Of a stretch of DNA of 64,000 bases, positions 19,918 through 64,000 are shown in pieces. Location of the stretch: contig CAZAJM010000001.1 in the NCBI GenBank assembly GCA_964485625.1, positions 29,803-93,802 of the forward strand, read 5' to 3'. The notes under the pieces are model-generated. The model was not told the origin of the DNA. It made no database searches and saw only the letters and a list, made by a program, of their open reading frames with translations. A program made the position numbers and the translations under genes. Positions within the stretch are counted from its first letter, which is position 1; every line of letters starts with the position of its first letter. The DNA is from an uncultured Candidatus Saccharibacteria bacterium (GTDB taxonomy: Bacteria; Patescibacteriota; UBA1384; JAGGWG01; CAZAJM01).

Positions 19918-20442
19918 TTAAGCTGTCGCTTTTTGATTGAAACCGGTTCCATCGCAAAAGGGGCATTTTCTTGCTGTCATATCTTCGTTAATCCCAAATA
20001 TTTTAGTTCCTCCACAGATGGGGCAGACTTGATCGAAAGCTAGTTTTCTACCACTTTCCATAGCAATCCAACCAGAACCACAGCAAGTCCGACAACTATA
20101 GTCAGGCTCTTCCCGACCACAATCGGGGCAATCCACAATTTCTGCGTAATAGATAATCTTAAGGCAGTCTCTGTTGAAGCCTAGATATTTAGCTTCAGAA
20201 AACATATGGTCATTTTTAAACCAGTTTGCAGCTTTAATTGACCTTGTCTCTAATATAGCTAAAGCAACCTTTTTGGGTACATTAATTGTCATGCCAGGAA
20301 GTAGAATCGTTTTTTTCTCCAGATCAAACATTACAATGAAATCGCTAATTACATCAGGAATTTCTAAGCCAATCCACTGCCTTTTAATATCAACTGGCGC
20401 ACGACCATCAGGAATAGATTCTATTACAATCGACCTGCTCAT
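19918..20442 (-). CDS. Hypothetical protein with a C-terminal DnaJ-type CxxCxGxG zinc-finger cluster
   Basis: C-terminal motifs CPDCG, CRTCCGSGW, CPICGGTK, CPFCDGTGF. N-terminal domain unknown. Confidence 0.5.
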   Translation of the reverse strand: MSRSIVIESIPDGRAPVDIKRQWIGLEIPDVISDFIVMFDLEKKTILLPGMTINVPKKVALAILETRSIKAANWFKNDHMFSEAKYLGFNRDCLKIIYYAEIVDCPDCGREEPDYSCRTCCGSGWIAMESGRKLAFDQVCPICGGTKIFGINEDMTARKCPFCDGTGFNQKATA

Positions 20443-20534
20443 TGCTTGACCTCCTCTTCAAGCTGCACTTAGCTCTAATTTTTAGTTTAAATTAAAAAAA
20501 CCTTTTGTCAAAGATGCAAAAATTATAGAAAAAT

Positions 20535-20759
20535 CTAATCGCAAGCTACTCCATTAGAGTCTGTATCGAGATCATGGATATCTAAGCCGGTTGATTGTGT
20601 GCAGTAATCTAATATCTCTTGAGCTTTCTCTTGATTAAGCTCATCACAATCATATATATCACTAGTGCAATCGTATCTGATTGGTAAACAACCAAACATA
20701 ATTAAGCCAATTAGAATAACACCAGTTATTATCCCACTAATTGTATACCTATTGTTCAT
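20535..20759 (-). CDS. Small secreted Excalibur (extracellular Ca-binding) domain protein
   Basis: Signal/TM N-terminus. The C-terminus DLDTDSNGVACD fits the Excalibur DxDxDGxxCE motif. 74 aa. Confidence 0.55.
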   Translation of the reverse strand: MNNRYTISGIITGVILIGLIMFGCLPIRYDCTSDIYDCDELNQEKAQEILDYCTQSTGLDIHDLDTDSNGVACD

Positions 20760-20822: not shown

Positions 20823-20930
20823 TTGTTCAAATCCATCCAGATTAAACACAGTAAAAAAGTATACTCCACAAGGGAGTAATTTTTCTACGGACTCTACCGT
20901 ATAAACTTCTAACTTTGGTGTTTGGGATTT
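20823..20930. repeat. 3'-flanking module copy 1 (~110 nt), paralogous to 22204-22313. Contains the conserved box GGACTCTACCGTATAAACTT(C/T)TAACTTT(G/A)GTGTTTGGG and a hairpin terminator.
   Basis: Compared by eye: ttgttcaaat(c/t)c...cagat(t/c)aaacac...ggactctaccgtataaactt...gtgtttggg(a/g)ttt is shared between the regions downstream of the minus-strand genes at 20970 and 22379. Confidence 0.7.
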
Positions 20931-20969
20931 GAGTAAAGAAAAAAATCGCTATAAACTTAAAATCATAAT

Positions 20970-21563
20970 TTATTCTTTGGGATATAACGATTTGAACACT
21001 ATTACGTCTCTAGTGTAACAGTGGTGGCAACCTGCCTGTATTTTTCCCTCTATCATTTCTGCTACTAAACGAAGTTCTCTAACCGCTCTTTCAATTTCAT
21101 AGTCAAACAAGGCGATGGAAATATTTGGGTCTCCATCATGCATGGTCCCGGGAGTCGGAATATTCAGGAAATAATCATACCTAATAAACTGCCTCTGTGC
21201 AGCAAATTCTCCGCCATACCTGTCGATTAGCCAACTGCCATAATGTTCTTTATTCCATCTGATTATGTCTTCATCTGATACTTCCATAAATAGTTCTGGA
21301 CAAAAAGCAATAGCGAGTTCTTCAGGCGTCATTTCGACTACTCCATTTACTTGAGAAATTGGAGAGTGTTGGATATCCCAATCAACAATGTATCCGGGGT
21401 GATGAGTGGGCTGGTCATCTCTAGAATGCTGAATCCTCAACCTTGCAGCGTTAGAAGCTATATTTATTGAACCAACGTCTGAGCTTTTAACCATTAATTT
21501 ATCCCCGTGATTGTGGAACCAGTCAGGTCCTAAACCAGACATTATCGGCTTTTTAAGATACAT
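20970..21563 (-). CDS. Hypothetical protein (orphan X1) in the tRNA-Asp-adjacent islet
   Basis: 197-aa ORF with its own promoter/RBS (GGTGAGGTGAAAAG-ATG). His/Cys-containing (HHPGY, CHHC). No recognisable family. Confidence 0.5.
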   Translation of the reverse strand: MYLKKPIMSGLGPDWFHNHGDKLMVKSSDVGSINIASNAARLRIQHSRDDQPTHHPGYIVDWDIQHSPISQVNGVVEMTPEELAIAFCPELFMEVSDEDIIRWNKEHYGSWLIDRYGGEFAAQRQFIRYDYFLNIPTPGTMHDGDPNISIALFDYEIERAVRELRLVAEMIEGKIQAGCHHCYTRDVIVFKSLYPKE

Positions 21564-21604
21564 CTTTTCACCTCACAAGGTGCAAGAGTGTTCACTCATT
21601 AAAT

Positions 21605-21658
21605 ATATTAAACTAACCTTTAGTTTTAATCAAATAAAAAACCACCTTTTCGGGTGGC
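21605..21658 (-). promoter_or_regulatory. Terminator-promoter module upstream of X1: minus-strand hairpin GCCACCCGAAAAGGTGG+T-run, then TTGATT-N17-TAATAT
   Basis: Read on the minus strand. -35 is at 21633-21628, -10 at 21610-21605, and the hairpin at 21658-21636. A paralogous module sits upstream of X2. Confidence 0.55.
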
Positions 21659-22063
21659 AATGTTCAAAGTAGAATTCAGGCTAATTAATTACTCTAAATA
21701 GTTTTTAAGAAGCTTAGTTATTGTTCTCCTACCCCATCCGCTCTTGAGGTATTTTTCTCTACTCTTGGCATCTTTCTTATTTAAAAAGACCTCGTAATAG
21801 ATTAATTTAAGAGGTCTTTTATGTTTGGTTTAGTTTGAATTTCCTTTTCTATGGCTCTCTATCCTCTTTTTAAGTTTAGTCGAGTAGCCAATATATAAGC
21901 TATTGTCTTTCTTGCTTTGTAATATATAGACGTAATACATATTTAAACACGTTCGCGTAATAAATCTTAGATTTACACGCGACACGCCACGTTTAATTTT
22001 TTATTGTCTAAAAATTATTACGTGGCGGGGCTTGCCGGAATTTCACTGTCCCCATAGGGCTTC

Positions 22064-22105
22064 CCCGCCTGCCATCGCCTGCGGCTTAGCCAATGGCGGG
22101 CACGG
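22064..22105. repeat. GC-rich miniature repeat, copy A (CCCCGCCTGCCATCGCCTGCGGCTTAGCCAATGGCGGGCACGG)
   Basis: Member of the CCTGCCCGCC...GGCAGGCGGG family seen at five sites. Sits in an otherwise AT-rich intergenic region. A perfect GC palindrome CTCCCGCCGTGGCGGGAG lies at about 22163-22182. Confidence 0.6.
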
Positions 22106-22203
22106 CGCCCTCTGGCCTTCTCTTTTTGATAATATCAAAAAATAGATAGGTCACCCTCCCGCCGTGGCGGGAGAAAACATTGTGTTTTCCCGACCCCTTT
22201 CCT

Positions 22204-22313
22204 TGTTCAAATTCGCCCAGATCAAACACTGCCAAAATAAAACCGCCCTTAAAAGGGCGAACTTATTCTGGCGGACTCTACCGTATAAACTTTTAACTTT
22301 AGTGTTTGGGGTT
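22204..22313. repeat. 3'-flanking module copy 2 (paralogue of 20823-20930), including a minus-strand intrinsic terminator (hairpin 22244-22259 plus T-run)
   Basis: Same conserved box ggactctaccgtataaactt and flanks as copy 1. Hairpin CGCCC-TTAAAA-GGGCG flanked by an A/T run. Confidence 0.7.
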
Positions 22314-22378
22314 TAATAAAAAAGACCAGAAAAGACTCGGGAGAGGCCTAACTGGCCTTTAAGTTCTGGAGACTAGTG

Positions 22379-22939
22379 TTAGGAGGATTGCAGGCATTTT
22401 TTCTGAACATTATCAAAAAGGATAAACTGAAAGCCTTCAATTTCCCTAACGGGGAGAATGCTTTTAGACCGAAGTTGACTGATATGCTCCATATGTTCGG
22501 CGATGGGGCAGGACAGAGGGGAGCTATATCCTTCTAAAATACACATTCCATACTCACCACTGCCATCTTGGGTCTCGTTACCACAGATATATTCTTGTCT
22601 GCTGCTCTGGCTGAGTCTTTCACATTCTGGAAGTTCAATTATGGTATTTGAGTCATCTATCCGTAGTGCTTTGCTTTCAGGTAATTCTCCCCCTGTGTTT
22701 GCTCCGTCCCATTCGCTTTGGAAAGTACTAATAACATCTTCAGGCCTGTTTGCTTCGACTATACAGTGAGTTCTTTTTCTAGCAATCAGTGCCCTTCTGA
22801 TATTACTTGGGTCTAGCTCCTCTTTGTTGTCATATTTCACGAACAAGCCTACATTGTCTACAGCTATAATGATTTCATGAAAGCCATTAGTCCCAACTCT
22901 TGCAGATCTTTTCCATAAAGGCACTTGATAGAGTGGCAT
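22379..22939 (-). CDS. Hypothetical protein (orphan X2) in the tRNA-Asp-adjacent islet
   Basis: 186-aa ORF with an AGGAGG RBS and a strong upstream promoter. Cys-rich C-terminal half. No recognisable family. Not similar to X1 despite shared flanks. Confidence 0.5.
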   Translation of the reverse strand: MPLYQVPLWKRSARVGTNGFHEIIIAVDNVGLFVKYDNKEELDPSNIRRALIARKRTHCIVEANRPEDVISTFQSEWDGANTGGELPESKALRIDDSNTIIELPECERLSQSSRQEYICGNETQDGSGEYGMCILEGYSSPLSCPIAEHMEHISQLRSKSILPVREIEGFQFILFDNVQKKCLQSS

Positions 22940-22979
22940 GAGATATCTCCTCCTAATTTTGTGGTAGGTGCGTGAATTG

Positions 22980-23034
22980 ATGATAAATTAAACTTTAATT
23001 ATTTTCAACCTAAAAACCACCTTTTCAGGTGGCT
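22980..23034 (-). promoter_or_regulatory. Terminator-promoter module upstream of X2: minus-strand hairpin GCCACCTGAAAAGGTGG+T-run, then TTGAAA-N17-TATCAT
   Basis: -35 at 23008-23003, -10 at 22985-22980, hairpin at 23034-23013. Paralogous to the module at 21605-21658. Confidence 0.6.
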
Positions 23035-23056
23035 AGGGTAGAGTATAACTAAACTT

Positions 23057-23130
23057 CGGGGCTGACCGGATTTGAACCGGCGGTCTCCTGCGTGACAGGC
23101 AGGCGCTTTAAACCACTAAGCTACAGCCCC
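23057..23130 (-). tRNA. tRNA-Asp (anticodon GTC)
   Basis: Minus-strand sequence GGGGCTGTAGCTTAGTGGTTTAAAGCGCCTGCCTGTCACGCAGGAGACCGCCGGTTCAAATCCGGTCAGCCCCG folds as a cloverleaf. Anticodon loop is CTGTCAC. No encoded CCA. Confidence 0.85.
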
Positions 23131-23156
23131 AAAAATAAATTGTTAAAATTGATAAA

Positions 23157-23325
23157 CCCCATGTTCTCCAAGCCTCTTTAAGGATCTGAACCGGCTTGGT
23201 CTGTCCGGTGGACACCGGACCGCTTTAAACCACCCCGCCTGCCAAAGACTAAAGCTGGTGACCTGCCCGCTAGTGCCTGAGCACAGCAATGGCAGGCGGG
23301 TGGCGGGCAGGTAAGCTACAGCCCC
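23157..23325 (-). pseudogene. Degenerate tRNA-Asp-like copy interrupted in the D-loop by a 78-nt GC-rich repeat element (23234-23311)
   Basis: The minus strand begins GGGGCTGTAGCTTA (identical to the tRNA-Asp 5' end), then the 78-nt insert, then GTGGTTTAAAGCG (identical D-loop). It then diverges into a degenerate anticodon/T-arm (anticodon loop TGTCCAC lacks U33), and the acceptor 3' strand is not complementary. Confidence 0.55.
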
Positions 23326-23385
23326 ATACAATCAGATATAAGAAAAAGATACCACAGAATATCTCTTTTTTCAACCTCTAATAAT

Positions 23386-30945: not shown

Positions 30946-30992
30946 GCCCTCCACCTATCATCGTCTGCGGCTTCAGTTGTTGGCAGGCGGGG
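30946..30992. repeat. GC-rich miniature repeat, copy C (degenerate left arm; ...CATCGTCTGCGGCTTCAGTTGTTGGCAGGCGGGG)
   Basis: The core GCGGCTTCAGT(T/C)GTTGGCAGGCGGG is nearly identical to copy E at 53845-53886. Confidence 0.55.
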
Positions 30993-31132
30993 TTTCTTGA
31001 TGTGCGAAGCATTGGCGAAGTATGGTCAAACCAATTTAGCTCTTACCCCATATCCTAGCTCTATATAGTTTTGGTTAAATAAAGAAGGCGAAATAGCTTG
31101 TTTTGGCTAAACGCCTAAGATCAATATTTAAT

Positions 31133-53833: not shown

Positions 53834-53900
53834 AAATCGGAAGGCCTGCCCGCCATTGCCTACGGCTTCAGTCGTTGGCAGGCGGGTTACCTTCAGAATT
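53834..53900. repeat. GC-rich miniature repeat, copy E (CCTGCCCGCCATTGCCTACGGCTTCAGTCGTTGGCAGGCGGG at 53845-53886), flanked by TCGGAAGG/CCTTCAGA partial inverted arms
   Basis: Sits in the 45-nt uvrB-uvrA intergenic spacer. Termini CCTGCCCGCC/GGCAGGCGGG. Confidence 0.6.
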
Positions 53901-58231: not shown

Positions 58232-59068
58232 ATGTCTGAACAGACAAAAGTCGTTGTCCTCAACGAGGCCCCCCATAATAGGATAGAGAAGGGCCTTGCC
58301 TGCTTGGCCAATGCTGGGGTAACCAGTGACCATTGGCAGCAGGCCACCATCGATGACCCGATCGCCCGAAGGTGTGTCGCCTCAGCTCTCAAGGGCGAGG
58401 TAGCTACTCCAATCACTCAAGACGATTGGTTGGAGCGTGAGGCTGAGATCCTCAGCCAGATCTGCGATAGTGGGAAGGGCTCAGGCATGTTCAGTGTCGA
58501 GTCCCTCCGTCCCGCACTGAACCGGGCAGTTGAGGAATGGGGAGAACCCACTGAGCACTGGCGGGTAATCCCCGGTGCCTACACCCTCCCCGACTTGTTC
58601 GAGATTCTCTACCGCTTGGAAGACAAGTGGCAGGAGGATCACAGCGGCAAGAGCTTCCTCTGCGGGAGGCGCAAAGAGGAGTGGTGGCGGACCAGTGACA
58701 CGTACCAGCCTATCGCCACTGAGCTTGGTGTCATGGTCTGCAACCTCGAGACCTGCGCTAACCCGACTGATCTGGACGGTGCCCCCTACTACCTCAACCG
58801 TGAGGAGCAGGAGGCCTGGGTCAAGACCCAGGGAGCGGAGGAAATGATGAGCGCTGAAGAGGTTATCTACCTCTTCATCCGCTCTATTATGGGGCTAAGC
58901 CGCCCTCTCTGGCCTGCCGGTACCATGCGCTGCCGAAACAACACCGGTTCGGGCGGCTCGCTCAGCGTCTATTGGCACGCGCGCGATGGCTTGAGCGTCA
59001 GCGGCTGGCACGATGTTGGTCCGAGTTGGTGCATCGGTGCTCTCCCCCGGAAGTTGGTTTTGGCCTAG
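58232..59068 (+). CDS. DGR variable (target) protein with a C-terminal VR in a CLec/FGE-like fold; strongly GC-rich gene
   Basis: The C-terminal ~36 codons are the VR. The whole ORF is about 55-58% GC against ~38% flanks. GGAGG RBS. No signal peptide or TM. The VR-encoded tail ...GSGGSLSVYWHARDGLSVSGWHDVGPSWCIGALPRK. Confidence 0.8.
   Translation: MSEQTKVVVLNEAPHNRIEKGLACLANAGVTSDHWQQATIDDPIARRCVASALKGEVATPITQDDWLEREAEILSQICDSGKGSGMFSVESLRPALNRAVEEWGEPTEHWRVIPGAYTLPDLFEILYRLEDKWQEDHSGKSFLCGRRKEEWWRTSDTYQPIATELGVMVCNLETCANPTDLDGAPYYLNREEQEAWVKTQGAEEMMSAEEVIYLFIRSIMGLSRPLWPAGTMRCRNNTGSGGSLSVYWHARDGLSVSGWHDVGPSWCIGALPRKLVLA
58945..59053 (+). repeat. DGR variable repeat (VR), 109 nt
   Basis: Identical to the TR at 59417-59525 at all 92 non-mismatched positions. 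All 17 mismatches fall where the TR has A (VR has G/C/T). A GC palindrome GGCCTAGGCC (59062-59071) lies immediately 3'. Confidence 0.85.
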
Positions 59069-59416
59069 GCCCTTGGGGTCTGGGATCTATTGGGTGTTAG
59101 CTCTTGGTTTTTCCGCTCTGCGGATCACCTTGGACTAACGCCCATCTTTTTTTAAATAAAAATATGGTAGAATATAGTTAAGATAGCAATGAATTGGAGT
59201 TTACGGATTCCAATCGCTATCTTCCTGATCTCTTGGAGACAGAGTCCTTAATTTGAATCTGAATTAAGGGGAGTTTTTAAAAAGGGATTAGAGACTTCTT
59301 ACTGTCTGTTTGGCAGGGTTTTGGTAGCTTGAATACTTGCCACATAAAATACAGGGAGGAGTAGCCTTATTTGAGGTCTCAACTCCTGGTGGTTGCAGAG
59401 GACAGATAGTAAATTA

Positions 59417-59525
59417 CGGTTCGGGCAACTCGCTCAACGTCAATTGGAACGCGAACGATGGCTTGAACGTCAACAACTGGCACGATGATGATCCGAATTG
59501 GAACATCGGTGCTCTCCCCCGGAAG
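59417..59525 (+). repeat. DGR template repeat (TR), 109 nt, rich in AAC codons
   Basis: cggttcgggcAActcgctcaAcgtcAattggAacgcgAAcgatggcttgaAcgtcaAcAActggcacgatgAtgAtccgaAttggAAcatcggtgctctcccccggaag. Capitals mark TR adenines substituted in the VR. Confidence 0.85.
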
Positions 59526-59544
59526 TCTCTATTTCTTTTGGAAT

Positions 59545-63765: not shown

Positions 63766-63839
63766 GCCCTCGTAGCTCAACTGGATAGAGCGCTTGGCTT
63801 CGGACCAGGAGGTTGCAGGTTCGAATCCTGCCGAGGGTA
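63766..63839 (+). tRNA. tRNA-Arg (anticodon TCG)
   Basis: GCCCTCGTAGCTCAACTGGATAGAGCGCTTGGCTTCGGACCAGGAGGTTGCAGGTTCGAATCCTGCCGAGGGTA. Anticodon loop CTTCGGA. No encoded CCA. Confidence 0.8.
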
Positions 63840-64000
63840 CTTACGAGGTAGGTGGAGAACCTGCTGTCTGTCAGATAGAGATAGGTTCGGCTGAAAGCGT
63901 TTCGACTATAGGCAAGCGAAACTTAAACCTAGGCCAATGGAAGAAGGGCTTTAAGCCCATCGAATCCTGCCGAGGGTACTTGCGAGGTAGGTGAAGAACC
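63821..64000 (+). repeat. 41-nt direct repeat (63821-63861 and 63960-64000; 2 mismatches) comprising the last 19 nt of tRNA-Arg plus 22 nt downstream; the second copy reaches the window edge
   Basis: tcgaatcctgccgagggtactt(a/g)cgaggtaggtg(g/a)agaacc occurs twice, 139 nt apart. The sequence preceding the second copy is not tRNA-like. Confidence 0.7.

What the first reader, a model, noticed from the sequence alone, without database searches (positions are those of the whole stretch)
20823..23034. Cassette-like orphan genes next to tRNA-Asp share duplicated 5' terminator-promoter modules and a duplicated ~110-nt 3' module
Two unrelated minus-strand ORFs (X1 20970-21563; X2 22379-22939) are each preceded by a near-identical module: an intrinsic terminator hairpin GCCACC(C/T)GAAAAGGTGG+T-run, immediately followed by a near-consensus sigma70-like promoter (TTGATT-N17-TAATAT and TTGAAA-N17-TATCAT) and a strong RBS. 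Each is followed by a paralogous ~110-nt 3' region containing a 40-nt conserved box (GGACTCTACCGTATAAACTT-TAACTTT-GTGTTTGGG on the + strand), a terminator hairpin and a conserved tail. The same genes are insulated on both sides, as in expression cassettes. The islet (19.9-23.3 kb) also holds an Excalibur Ca-binding mini-protein, a DnaJ-zinc-finger protein, a GC-rich repeat and a disrupted tRNA copy. This is consistent with a modular, exchangeable accessory locus (defence, toxin or niche genes) recombining via the shared flanks.
Basis: seen in the sequence. Interest (0 to 1): 0.6.

Follow-up and report, generated by a model that had tools for sequence, protein, structure and literature searches.

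The report
Two unrelated genes sharing duplicated flanks
Two neighbouring genes from unrelated, uncharacterised protein families sit in near-identical non-coding "shells" (upstream terminator plus promoter, and a ~120-nt downstream element), so a small expression unit was copied and its gene swapped, but nothing shows an active cassette-exchange system.

Summary
Two ~835-nt minus-strand units (20823-21658 and 22203-23033) share a 5' module, made of the terminator hairpin GCCACCYGAAAAGGTGG, a T-run and a promoter. They also share a ~120-nt 3' module: a 41-nt box at 95% identity, a hairpin of different sequence in each copy, and a 27-nt tail. All parts lie in register 1375-1384 nt apart, and shuffled sequence gives no such matches.

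The transcribed parts between the modules (5'UTR, ORF, own terminator) are unrelated. X1 and X2 are not orphans. An exhaustive HMMER search places each in its own family of small uncharacterised proteins, at up to 48-49% identity. The two families are unrelated (hhalign probability 0.2%).

The modules were found nowhere else: not in the rest of the window, GTDB species genomes, IMG/VR or JGI metagenomes. No recombinase Pfam domain was found among the ORFs scanned across window 1-38.7 kb. The integron attC core motifs are absent. There are no defence, phage or plasmid hits.

The best reading is a duplicated monocistronic expression shell with a swapped cargo gene, in a decaying tRNA-Asp-adjacent junk zone. 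That zone holds a pseudo-tRNA, a GIY-YIG gene with a nonsense codon, and GC-rich repeats. Whether exchange still happens is untested, because the genome has no close relatives in the databases.

The parts
23056..23131 (-). tRNA-Asp (GTC). Its 3' end lies 22 nt upstream of the unit 2 hairpin.
   Evidence: ARAGORN; Rfam tRNA 75.4 bits.
22980..23034 (-). 5' module of unit 2. Terminator hairpin AGCCACCTGAAAAGGTGGTT plus T-run (23015-23034), then -35 TTGAAA (23003-23008), a 17-nt spacer and -10 TATCAT (22980-22985).
   Evidence: (D2).
22379..22939 (-). X2, 186 aa. Member of an uncharacterised family with four invariant Cys residues. The strong RBS AGGAGGAG precedes the start.
   Evidence: No Pfam, PHROG, PADLOC or NCBIfam hit.
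22315..22370 (-). X2's own terminator (CCAGAA...TTCTGG with an inner GGCC...GGCC hairpin, then a T-run). It is part of the non-shared cargo.
   Evidence: Read from the sequence. Not aligned between the units.
22203..22321 (-). 3' module of unit 2. Conserved box (22272-22314), hairpin TCGCCCTTTTAAGGGCGG plus T-run (22243-22260), conserved tail (22203-22229).
   Evidence: (D1, D3).
22021..22190 (.). GC-rich structured segment. It belongs to a dispersed GC-rich repeat family with the motif TGGCAGGCGGG.
   Evidence: D6, D8.
21689..21940 (-). GIY-YIG nuclease gene of 83 codons, with one in-frame TAA at 21830-21832. Probably a pseudogene.
   Evidence: Pfam PF01541 E=1.2e-17.
21602..21658 (-). 5' module of unit 1. 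Terminator hairpin GCCACCCGAAAAGGTGGT plus T-run (21641-21658), then -35 TTGATT (21628-21633), a 17-nt spacer and -10 TAATAT (21605-21610).
   Evidence: (D2); hexamers read.
20970..21563 (-). X1, 197 aa. Member of a second uncharacterised family with the motif FLNIPxPGTxxDGDPN. RBS GAGGTGA. Residues ~167-197 are an extension that most homologues lack.
20823..20937 (-). 3' module of unit 1. Conserved box (20888-20930), hairpin TACTCCCTTGTGGAGTA plus T-run (20862-20878), conserved tail (20823-20849).
23143..23331 (-). Pseudo-tRNA. The 5' part resembles tRNA-Asp, a ~78-nt GC-rich insertion sits in the D-loop, and the 3' acceptor end is lost.
   Evidence: D12; alignment; not called by ARAGORN or Rfam.
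19918..20759 (-). Downstream island genes: a 74-aa small protein (20535-20759) and a 174-aa CxxC-rich protein (19918-20442).

Best explanation
**What it is.** Unit 1 and unit 2 are two copies of one ~0.84-kb monocistronic expression shell, and the transcribed cargo inside them has been exchanged for an unrelated gene.

**How the shell works.**
- An intrinsic terminator stops read-through from the gene upstream. That gene is tRNA-Asp for unit 2 and GIY-YIG for unit 1.
- Its T-run is followed within a few nucleotides by a sigma-70-type promoter.
- After the cargo comes a ~120-nt module: a 41-nt conserved box, a second terminator hairpin and a 27-nt tail.

**What the cargo is.** Each cargo is a 5'UTR with its own RBS, an ORF from one of two unrelated conserved families, and the gene's own terminator.

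**How it probably arose.** One route is tandem duplication of the unit, followed by replacement of the interior. The other is integration of a second unit by recombination in a shared flank. The 532-nt GIY-YIG plus GC-rich segment now sits at the junction between the two units.

**What is shown and what is inferred.**
- Shown: the homology pattern and the unrelatedness of the ORFs.
- Inferred from consensus only: promoter and terminator function.
- Inferred: the order of events.

**Present state.** The units most likely act as two ordinary, independently transcribed accessory genes. The region is a decaying zone next to a tRNA gene. It is not an active exchange system.
For: **The two units are copies of each other.**
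- Three collinear repeats lie in the same order, orientation and register. Each occurs only twice in 64 kb, with zero expected by chance. Two independent dispersed repeat families would not pair up like this.
- The shared segment includes the terminator of the upstream gene and a tail beyond the downstream terminator. Neither is needed for X1 or X2 expression. This points to copying of a DNA segment rather than convergent regulatory signals.

**The cargo was swapped cleanly.**
- Homology ends at the -10 element and resumes at the T-run before the box.
- The cargo lengths are 674 and 665 nt.
- X1 and X2 are real genes of two distinct families. hhalign gives 0.2% probability of relatedness. No cross-family relic is present.

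**Standalone units are normal for these families.** Their homologues in other genomes are also standalone terminator-promoter-RBS-ORF-terminator units set among housekeeping genes. In L004 an X2 homologue is bracketed by a duplicated ~35-nt T-run plus TTGACA promoter module, 814 nt apart.

**The surroundings look like a junk or accessory zone.** They hold a pseudo-tRNA, a nonsense-mutated GIY-YIG gene and GC-rich repeats, at a point where two transcription blocks converge.

**It is not an assembly artefact**.
Against: - There are only two copies in one genome, so no direction or mechanism of the swap can be shown.
- Conservation is uneven: the box is 95% identical, the hairpin about 50%, the tail 85%, and the 5' hairpin matches at 21 of 22 positions. 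The hairpin has been replaced in a way that keeps pairing. This suggests selection on the box and tail, which a plain duplication does not explain.
- The near-equal cargo lengths of two unrelated genes are unexplained. X1 reaches that length only through a C-terminal extension unusual for its family.
- The modules were not seen around any other gene, so the idea of a reusable shell rests on this one pair.
Confidence: 0.45

Rival explanations
1. The 3' module is a functional RNA or cis-regulatory element. It could be a 3'UTR-derived or read-through small RNA, or an attenuator for the next gene. It would be kept by selection in both units, with the shared promoter giving co-regulation.
For: - The box is 95% conserved while the adjacent hairpin has changed sequence but kept its pairing and T-run.
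- A closing helix CAAACAC/GTGTTTR encloses the module, and one outer pair covaries (U-A to C-G).
- Unit 2 folds with z = -3.8.
- The module lies between two terminators, where read-through RNA would exist.
Against: - No Rfam family matches.
- Unit 1 folds with z of only -1.6.
- The conserved tail lies after the T-run.
- No conserved promoter precedes the module on either strand (read).
- The box shows no unusual complementarity to the translation starts of the island genes.
- With two sequences, covariation is only anecdotal.
- This reading does not explain the duplicated upstream terminator.
Confidence: 0.17
2. The modules are small mobile or dispersed repeats. The 3' module would be a MITE- or Correia-like element with imperfect terminal inverted repeats and an internal terminator. 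The 5' hairpin would be a REP-like terminator repeat. Their pairing around X1 and X2 would come from a local duplication.
For: - The ends of the 3' module form an imperfect inverted repeat: CAAATCCCAAACAC ... GTGTTT..GGATTTG.
- This genome does hold a dispersed GC-rich repeat family.
- A related-type genome carries a 23-nt palindromic repeat exactly conserved five times, at or near gene ends.
Against: - Each module has only two copies in 64 kb, and they are always together and in register.
- No target-site duplication or clean terminal inverted repeats are visible at the module borders (read).
- No transposase or RAYT was detected in the ORFs scanned.
Confidence: 0.15
3. This is a site-specific gene-cassette system analogous to an integron array or to pdif modules. 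The tail-to-hairpin junction would be the recombination site, and the recombinase would be encoded elsewhere.
For: - It looks like an array: cargo, structured imperfect palindrome, cargo, structured imperfect palindrome.
- The cargos are unrelated small genes of unknown function, as in chromosomal integrons.
- The 8-nt repeat TTTGAACA lies at the 3' end of both units and directly before the hairpin of unit 1.
- A mobile-looking GIY-YIG plus GC-rich segment sits exactly at that junction.
Against: - The attC core motifs RYYYAAC and GTTRRRY are absent from both modules on both strands (definition from PMC3053210).
- Most of the box has no palindromic partner.
- Each cargo has its own promoter.
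- No tyrosine or serine recombinase domain was found in ORFs across window 1-38.7 kb.
- The module was not found in any collection.
Confidence: 0.1
4. The GIY-YIG gene is, or was, a free-standing homing endonuclease. Double-strand-break repair would have co-converted the flanking DNA, homogenising the non-coding flanks of neighbouring genes.
For: - A GIY-YIG gene lies exactly between 3' module 2 and 5' module 1.
- The 8-nt direct repeat TGTTCAAA (+ strand, 21664-21671 and 22204-22211) brackets the 532-nt segment.
Against: - The 83-aa protein is a bare catalytic domain with no DNA-binding domain, and it is interrupted by a stop codon.
- Co-conversion would homogenise the flanks next to the nuclease gene. 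It would not create a second pair of flanks 0.8 kb further out on each side.
- Homing does not produce target-site duplications.
Confidence: 0.06
5. X1 and X2 are extremely diverged paralogues from a tandem duplication, with conserved UTRs.
For: - The ORF lengths are similar (197 and 186 aa) and the unit lengths almost equal (836 and 831 nt).
Against: - Each protein has its own family with different invariant motifs.
- hhalign gives probability 0.2%.
- Alignment scores are below the shuffle mean.
- No hit credibly covers both halves of the concatenated query. P0066 runs 31 residues past the junction, and P0065 has two matched stretches with only the X2 one shown.
Confidence: 0.03

Closest known systems
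Phage 'morons' (independent transcription units added to a genome; PMC3594210)
   Same: One gene carries its own promoter and terminator and is inserted between other genes. The cargo is of unknown function. Expression is insulated on both sides.
   Different: There is no prophage context. X1 and X2 have no hits in PHROGs, INPHARED phages or plasmids. Only one weak IMG/VR match was found for the X1 family. Morons are not known to share homologous flanks with one another.
Integron gene cassettes, attC sites and CALIN arrays (PMC3053210)
   Same: Unrelated small ORFs are each followed by a ~120-nt conserved, structured, imperfectly palindromic element, and they are arranged head to tail.
   Different: The RYYYAAC and GTTRRRY cores are absent. 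The element is only partly palindromic. Each cassette has its own promoter and an upstream terminator. No integrase was found, and there are only two units.
MITE-like or REP-like intergenic repeats that carry terminators (Correia elements, REP/BIME; from my own knowledge)
   Same: A short structured repeat lies in 3' flanks and contains a hairpin that can terminate or stabilise transcripts. A 23-nt REP-like repeat sits at or near gene ends in another genome that carries an X1 homologue.
   Different: Copy number is two, always paired with the 5' module. No target-site duplication and no associated transposase were seen.
Conserved expression sites with swapped ORFs in small-genome bacteria, such as the Mycoplasma vsp, vlp and vsa loci (from my own knowledge)
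   Same: A highly conserved promoter and upstream region precedes different coding sequences in tandem.
   Different: Those ORFs share signal peptides and repeats, and they switch through site-specific inversion or slippage. Here the ORFs share nothing, and no switch element or recombinase is seen.

Membership tests
Integron cassette array / attC (CALIN) | attC bounded by the inverse core RYYYAAC and the core GTTRRRY | tested here: not met
   A regex scan of both modules on both strands finds no R''/R' pair in either module. The only hits lie in X2's own terminator, outside the shared module. Definition taken from PMC3053210.
Integron cassette array / attC (CALIN) | Imperfect palindrome of 57-141 bp that folds as a hairpin with extrahelical bases | tested here: inconclusive
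   The module is ~115-120 nt with a bulged closing helix. About 35 nt of the box have no pairing partner.
Integron cassette array / attC (CALIN) | Integron integrase nearby (not required for a CALIN), and mostly promoterless cassettes | tested here: not met
   No recombinase domain was found in the ORFs scanned across window 1-38.7 kb. Both units carry their own promoter-like site.
Phage moron | Independent transcription unit with its own promoter and terminator | tested here: met
   Consensus promoter, RBS and terminators flank each ORF. This is a consensus match only, with no expression data.
Phage moron | Located in a phage or prophage genome and absent from related phages | tested here: not met
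   The neighbours are chromosomal genes: GH130, LytR, SurA-like, UvrA/B and RuvABC. X1 and X2 have no PHROG or phage hits.
MITE / Correia-like element (3' module) | Terminal inverted repeats, a target-site duplication, and many dispersed copies | tested here: not met
   The TIR-like helix is imperfect. No TSD is visible. There are only 2 copies in 64 kb and none in the public collections. The rest of the genome could not be searched.
Known RNA families (Rfam 15) | Match at or above a family's gathering score | tested here: not met
   Only tRNAs reach threshold. The best module hit is HrrF at 22.6 bits against a gathering score of 77, E=1.2.
Anti-phage defence or toxin systems | Protein matches a known defence or toxin family | tested here: not met
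   PADLOC, Pfam and NCBIfam give no hit for X1 or X2. Among family members there are only single stray hits.
Tandem paralogues with conserved UTRs | Detectable homology between the two ORFs | tested here: not met
   BLASTP, shuffle test, hhalign 0.2%, and cross-family HMM scan of all six frames.
tRNA-targeted integrative island | Integrase, plus a direct repeat of the tRNA 3' end at the far border | tested here: not met
   No integrase was found. The T-loop-like GTTCAAATCC in the module tails is inverted relative to tRNA-Asp (I17). The extra tRNA copy is a 5' fragment lying upstream.

The most novel reading that the evidence does not exclude
The conserved shell (terminator-promoter, then box-terminator-tail) is the recombination and expression scaffold of a previously undescribed chromosomal gene-cassette system in uncultivated small-genome bacteria, unrelated to integron attC. 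Promoterless RBS-ORF-terminator cargos from many small protein families would be swapped into it, with the 41-nt box or the TTTGAACA junction as the crossover site. The duplicated terminator-promoter modules that bracket an X2 homologue in another genome (L004) would be a second footprint of the same process.
Probability: 0.1. Interest if true: 0.75.

Novelty: new variant of a known kind. Interest (0 to 1): 0.36.

Why it matters
If the shell is reusable, it would show how very small, recombinase-poor genomes add and replace single accessory genes while keeping them transcriptionally insulated. It would also give a sequence handle, the box, for finding more such sites.

As it stands, the finding documents three things:
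- a clean case of non-homologous gene replacement inside conserved non-coding flanks;
- two sizeable protein families (494 combined hits at E<=0.001) with no Pfam, NCBIfam or PHROGs match and no sequence match to any PDB chain;
- a dispersed GC-rich repeat family that has inserted into a tRNA copy.

Its value is limited because there are only two copies in a single genome.

Tried and rejected
**Searches for the modules elsewhere**
- A 20-mer of the box found 0 hits in GTDB species genomes and 0 in IMG/VR. The single JGI metagenome hit lies inside an unrelated coding sequence.
- I looked for syntenic relatives through the GH130 neighbour. None were found. All the proteins checked are singletons at 90% identity.
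- BLASTN and a covariance model of the modules against all loci carrying X1 or X2 homologues gave nothing significant.
- Extending beyond the window through edge proteins returned only short Logan contigs.

**Searches on the proteins**
- Word-indexed protein searches for X1, X2 and a fused family profile returned only self-hits plus one extra protein. This made the genes look like orphans. The exhaustive HMMER search overturned that.
- Single-sequence AlphaFold2 models of X1 and X2 were useless, with pLDDT of 32 and 40.
- Profile searches against PDB sequences gave nothing below E=0.1.
- tblastn against phages and plasmids gave no match. In IMG/VR, the X1-family profile gave one weak hit and the X2 profile was not searchable.

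**Readings of the modules that I rejected**
- attC motif test: negative.
- tRNA-like reading of the module: ARAGORN and Rfam are negative, and the D-loop-like and T-loop-like motifs lie on opposite strands.
- A + strand ORF across the module (22164-22316): rejected, because unit 1 has a stop and no start codon in that frame.
- Pairing between the box and ribosome-binding sites: no signal.
- Relics of the other family inside each unit: none.
Full report
**1.

Read on the minus strand, the locus runs in this order:
- tRNA-Asp (23056-23131)
- unit 2 (23033-22203)
- a 532-nt segment holding a GC-rich element and a GIY-YIG gene
- unit 1 (21658-20823)
- a 74-aa gene and a 174-aa CxxC-rich gene, after which the block meets a + strand operon end to end

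The repeat finder reports three collinear direct repeats between the units. They are 50 nt at 88%, 50 nt at 80% and 35 nt at 80%, spaced 1384, 1375 and 1380 nt apart. Each motif occurs exactly twice in the window even with three mismatches allowed, against 0.00 expected in shuffles. A window-wide repeat scan and a covariance model find no third copy. The same sequence is present at 100% identity in two independent Logan assemblies, so it is not a mis-assembly.

**2. Anatomy**

The 5' module has these parts:
- The hairpin GCCACC(C/T)GAAAAGGTGG plus the first five T of its T-run is identical at 21 of 22 positions.
- A promoter follows within a few nucleotides of the T-run. It is TTGAAA-17-TATCAT in unit 2 (10/12) and TTGATT-17-TAATAT in unit 1 (8/12 by my count, below the scan threshold).
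- Homology stops at the -10 element. The two 5'UTRs are 41 and 40 nt from the -10 to the ATG and are only ~20% identical. Their ribosome-binding sites differ (GAGGTGA and AGGAGGAG).

After each stop codon comes a gene-specific hairpin and a T-run. That hairpin is clear in unit 2 and weak in unit 1. Homology resumes at this T-run.

The 3' module has these parts:
- a 41-nt box, CCCAAACAC...GTCCG, with 39 of 41 positions identical;
- a hairpin plus T-run whose sequence is entirely different in the two copies but which still pairs. Both are scored as terminator-like;
- a 27-nt tail, GTGTTTRATCTGG..ATTTGAACAA, at 85% identity.

CAAACAC in the box pairs with GTGTTTR in the tail, so the module folds as a closed structure. 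Unit 2 folds with z = -3.8 and unit 1 with z = -1.6.

The shared part is therefore a shell: the upstream gene's terminator plus a promoter on one side, and box, terminator and tail on the other. The transcribed cargo differs (674 and 665 nt).

**3. The cargos are real, unrelated and not orphans**

Word-indexed searches returned only the proteins themselves. I then ran an exhaustive HMMER search of a concatenated X1+X2 query against 1.84 billion cluster representatives. It gave 494 hits at E<=0.001.
- Some hits cover only the X2 half, at up to 49% identity (for example P0010-P0028).
- Others cover only the X1 half, at up to 48% identity (for example P0029, P0044, P0052).

The X2 family has four invariant cysteines and a VEAxSPEEAI...EWEGAxIGG core. 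The X1 family has W-HHHG and FLNIPxPGTxxDGDPN motifs.

The two profiles are unrelated: hhalign gives 0.2% probability. Pairwise scores fall below the shuffle mean. Neither unit contains a relic of the other family in any frame.

Neither family matches anything known:
- Pfam, NCBIfam, PHROGs and PADLOC give nothing for X1, X2 or their family members, apart from single stray hits.
- PDB sequences give nothing below E=0.1.
- INPHARED phages and PLSDB plasmids give no match.

Their function stays unknown. The single-sequence AlphaFold models were unusable, at pLDDT 32 and 40.

**4. Context of homologues elsewhere**

Homologues sit as single genes, or in small clusters of unknown genes, among housekeeping genes. 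Examples are GroEL and DnaG, DprA, TopA and Mfd, ClpB and HtrA, and RNase HII. One contig (L005) consists of many small same-strand ORFs and could be viral.

These homologues are also built as terminator, promoter, RBS, ORF, terminator. The T-run is followed within 1-2 nt by the -35 element (L010, L004). That grammar is ordinary for these genomes and explains part of the similarity between the 5' modules. It does not explain the identical hairpin.

Two parallels are worth noting.
- In L004 an X2 homologue is bracketed by a duplicated ~35-nt module, GCGGG-T6/7-ATTTGACATTT, 814 nt apart.
- In L008 a 23-nt palindromic repeat is exactly conserved five times. Four copies directly follow a stop codon, including that of an X1-family gene, and the fifth lies upstream of that gene.

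The X1-family gene in L008 (P0074) is fused to a domain weakly similar to the N-terminus of the window's 174-aa protein (E=0.003).

None of these loci carries the window's own modules.

**5. What it is not**

- **Integron attC.** The core motifs are absent, the palindrome is partial, each unit has its own promoter and no integrase is present.
- **A known RNA family**.
- **A tRNA relic or att site.** The T-loop-like motif is inverted relative to tRNA-Asp (I17).
- **A conserved small ORF.** The + strand ORF 22164-22316 has no counterpart in unit 1.
- **A prophage moron** in the strict sense, because the context is chromosomal.

No recombinase or transposase domain was found in ORFs between window positions 1 and 38.7 kb.

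**6. Interpretation**

The most economical reading is that one small expression unit was copied and its interior replaced by a different gene. Equivalently, a second unit with the same flanks was integrated by recombination in a flank.

Segment copying fits better than convergent regulation. The shared DNA includes an upstream terminator that serves a different gene, and a tail beyond the downstream terminator.

Three things remain unexplained:
- the uneven conservation (box and tail much better conserved than the hairpin between them);
- the compensatory replacement of that hairpin;
- the near-equal cargo lengths.

These keep alive the ideas that the box is a functional RNA or protein-binding site, or a recombination site.

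This lineage has no relatives above 90% protein identity in 5.8 billion clusters.

**7. Verdict**

The repeat structure is genuine and tidy, and moderately interesting. It is best filed as a duplicated, cargo-swapped monocistronic unit in an accessory or decaying zone next to tRNA-Asp. The cassette-exchange reading is possible but unsupported. I score interest at about 0.36.

Noticed in passing
window 22021-22130, 23222-23300, 30959-30998, 53854-53893: A dispersed GC-rich repeat family (motifs TGGCAGGCGGG and CATCGYCTRCGGCTT) in a ~39% GC genome. One copy is a ~78-nt insertion exactly in the D-loop of a tRNA-Asp-like pseudogene. Its nested inverted repeats could form a pseudoknot-like fold.
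   Followed up: partly
window 23143-23331 (-): A pseudo-tRNA directly upstream of the intact tRNA-Asp. Its first 15 nt are identical to tRNA-Asp, the anticodon arm has diverged, the T-arm is half kept and the 3' acceptor end is lost.
   Followed up: partly
window 21689-21940 (-): A GIY-YIG catalytic-domain gene (Pfam E=1e-17) in one reading frame with a single in-frame TAA at 21830-21832. This is a nonsense mutation, not a frameshift.
   Followed up: yes
window 21664-21671, 22204-22211, 20824-20831 (+): The 8-nt direct repeat TGTTCAAA brackets the 532-nt GIY-YIG plus GC-rich segment between the units, and it also ends unit 1. It could be a target-site duplication, a crossover core, or chance.
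   Followed up: partly
window 63821-63861 and 63960-64000: The 3' end of tRNA-Arg plus ~20 nt of downstream sequence is repeated 139 nt further on at 95% identity, right at the window edge. This may be the att repeat of an integrated element, or a second tRNA copy (D7).
   Followed up: no
window 58232-59526: A GC-rich stretch (58331-59080, up to 70% GC) overlaps an ORF of 278 aa with no Pfam hit. A 110-nt repeat (58945-59054 vs 59417-59526, 85%) copies the 3' end of that ORF into the next intergenic region.
   Followed up: no
L008 9079-9101, 9632-9654, 9846-9868, 10792-10814, 15790-15812: The 23-nt imperfect palindrome TGTGGGGTTTACGAAACCGCACA is exactly conserved five times on the same strand. 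Four copies directly follow a stop codon and the fifth is intergenic. It is a REP-like element in a genome that carries an X1-family gene.
   Followed up: partly
L004 1608-1642 and 2422-2456: A duplicated module of terminator 3' arm, T-run and TTGACA promoter brackets an X2-family gene. The first copy lacks the 5' arm of the hairpin, as if a junction had fallen inside the terminator.
   Followed up: partly
P0074 (L008 10001-10789) and window 19918-20442: One X1-family member is fused to an N-terminal domain weakly similar (28% over 79 aa, E=0.003) to the N-terminus of the window's 174-aa CxxC-rich protein. This hints that the island genes are functionally linked.
   Followed up: partly
window 20970-21065 (X1 residues ~167-197): X1 has a ~30-aa C-terminal extension (EGKIQAGCHHCYTRDVIVFKSLYPKE) that is absent from most family members. 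It brings the cargo length to within 9 nt of the X2 cargo.
   Followed up: no
window 20888-20932 and 22272-22316 (+): Read on the + strand, the four substitutions in the box would be two synonymous Leu changes, one Ile/Val change and a stop-to-stop change (RTLPYKLLTLVFG[IV]*). Only unit 2 has a start codon and an open frame (ORF 22164-22316), so this is probably coincidence.
   Followed up: partly
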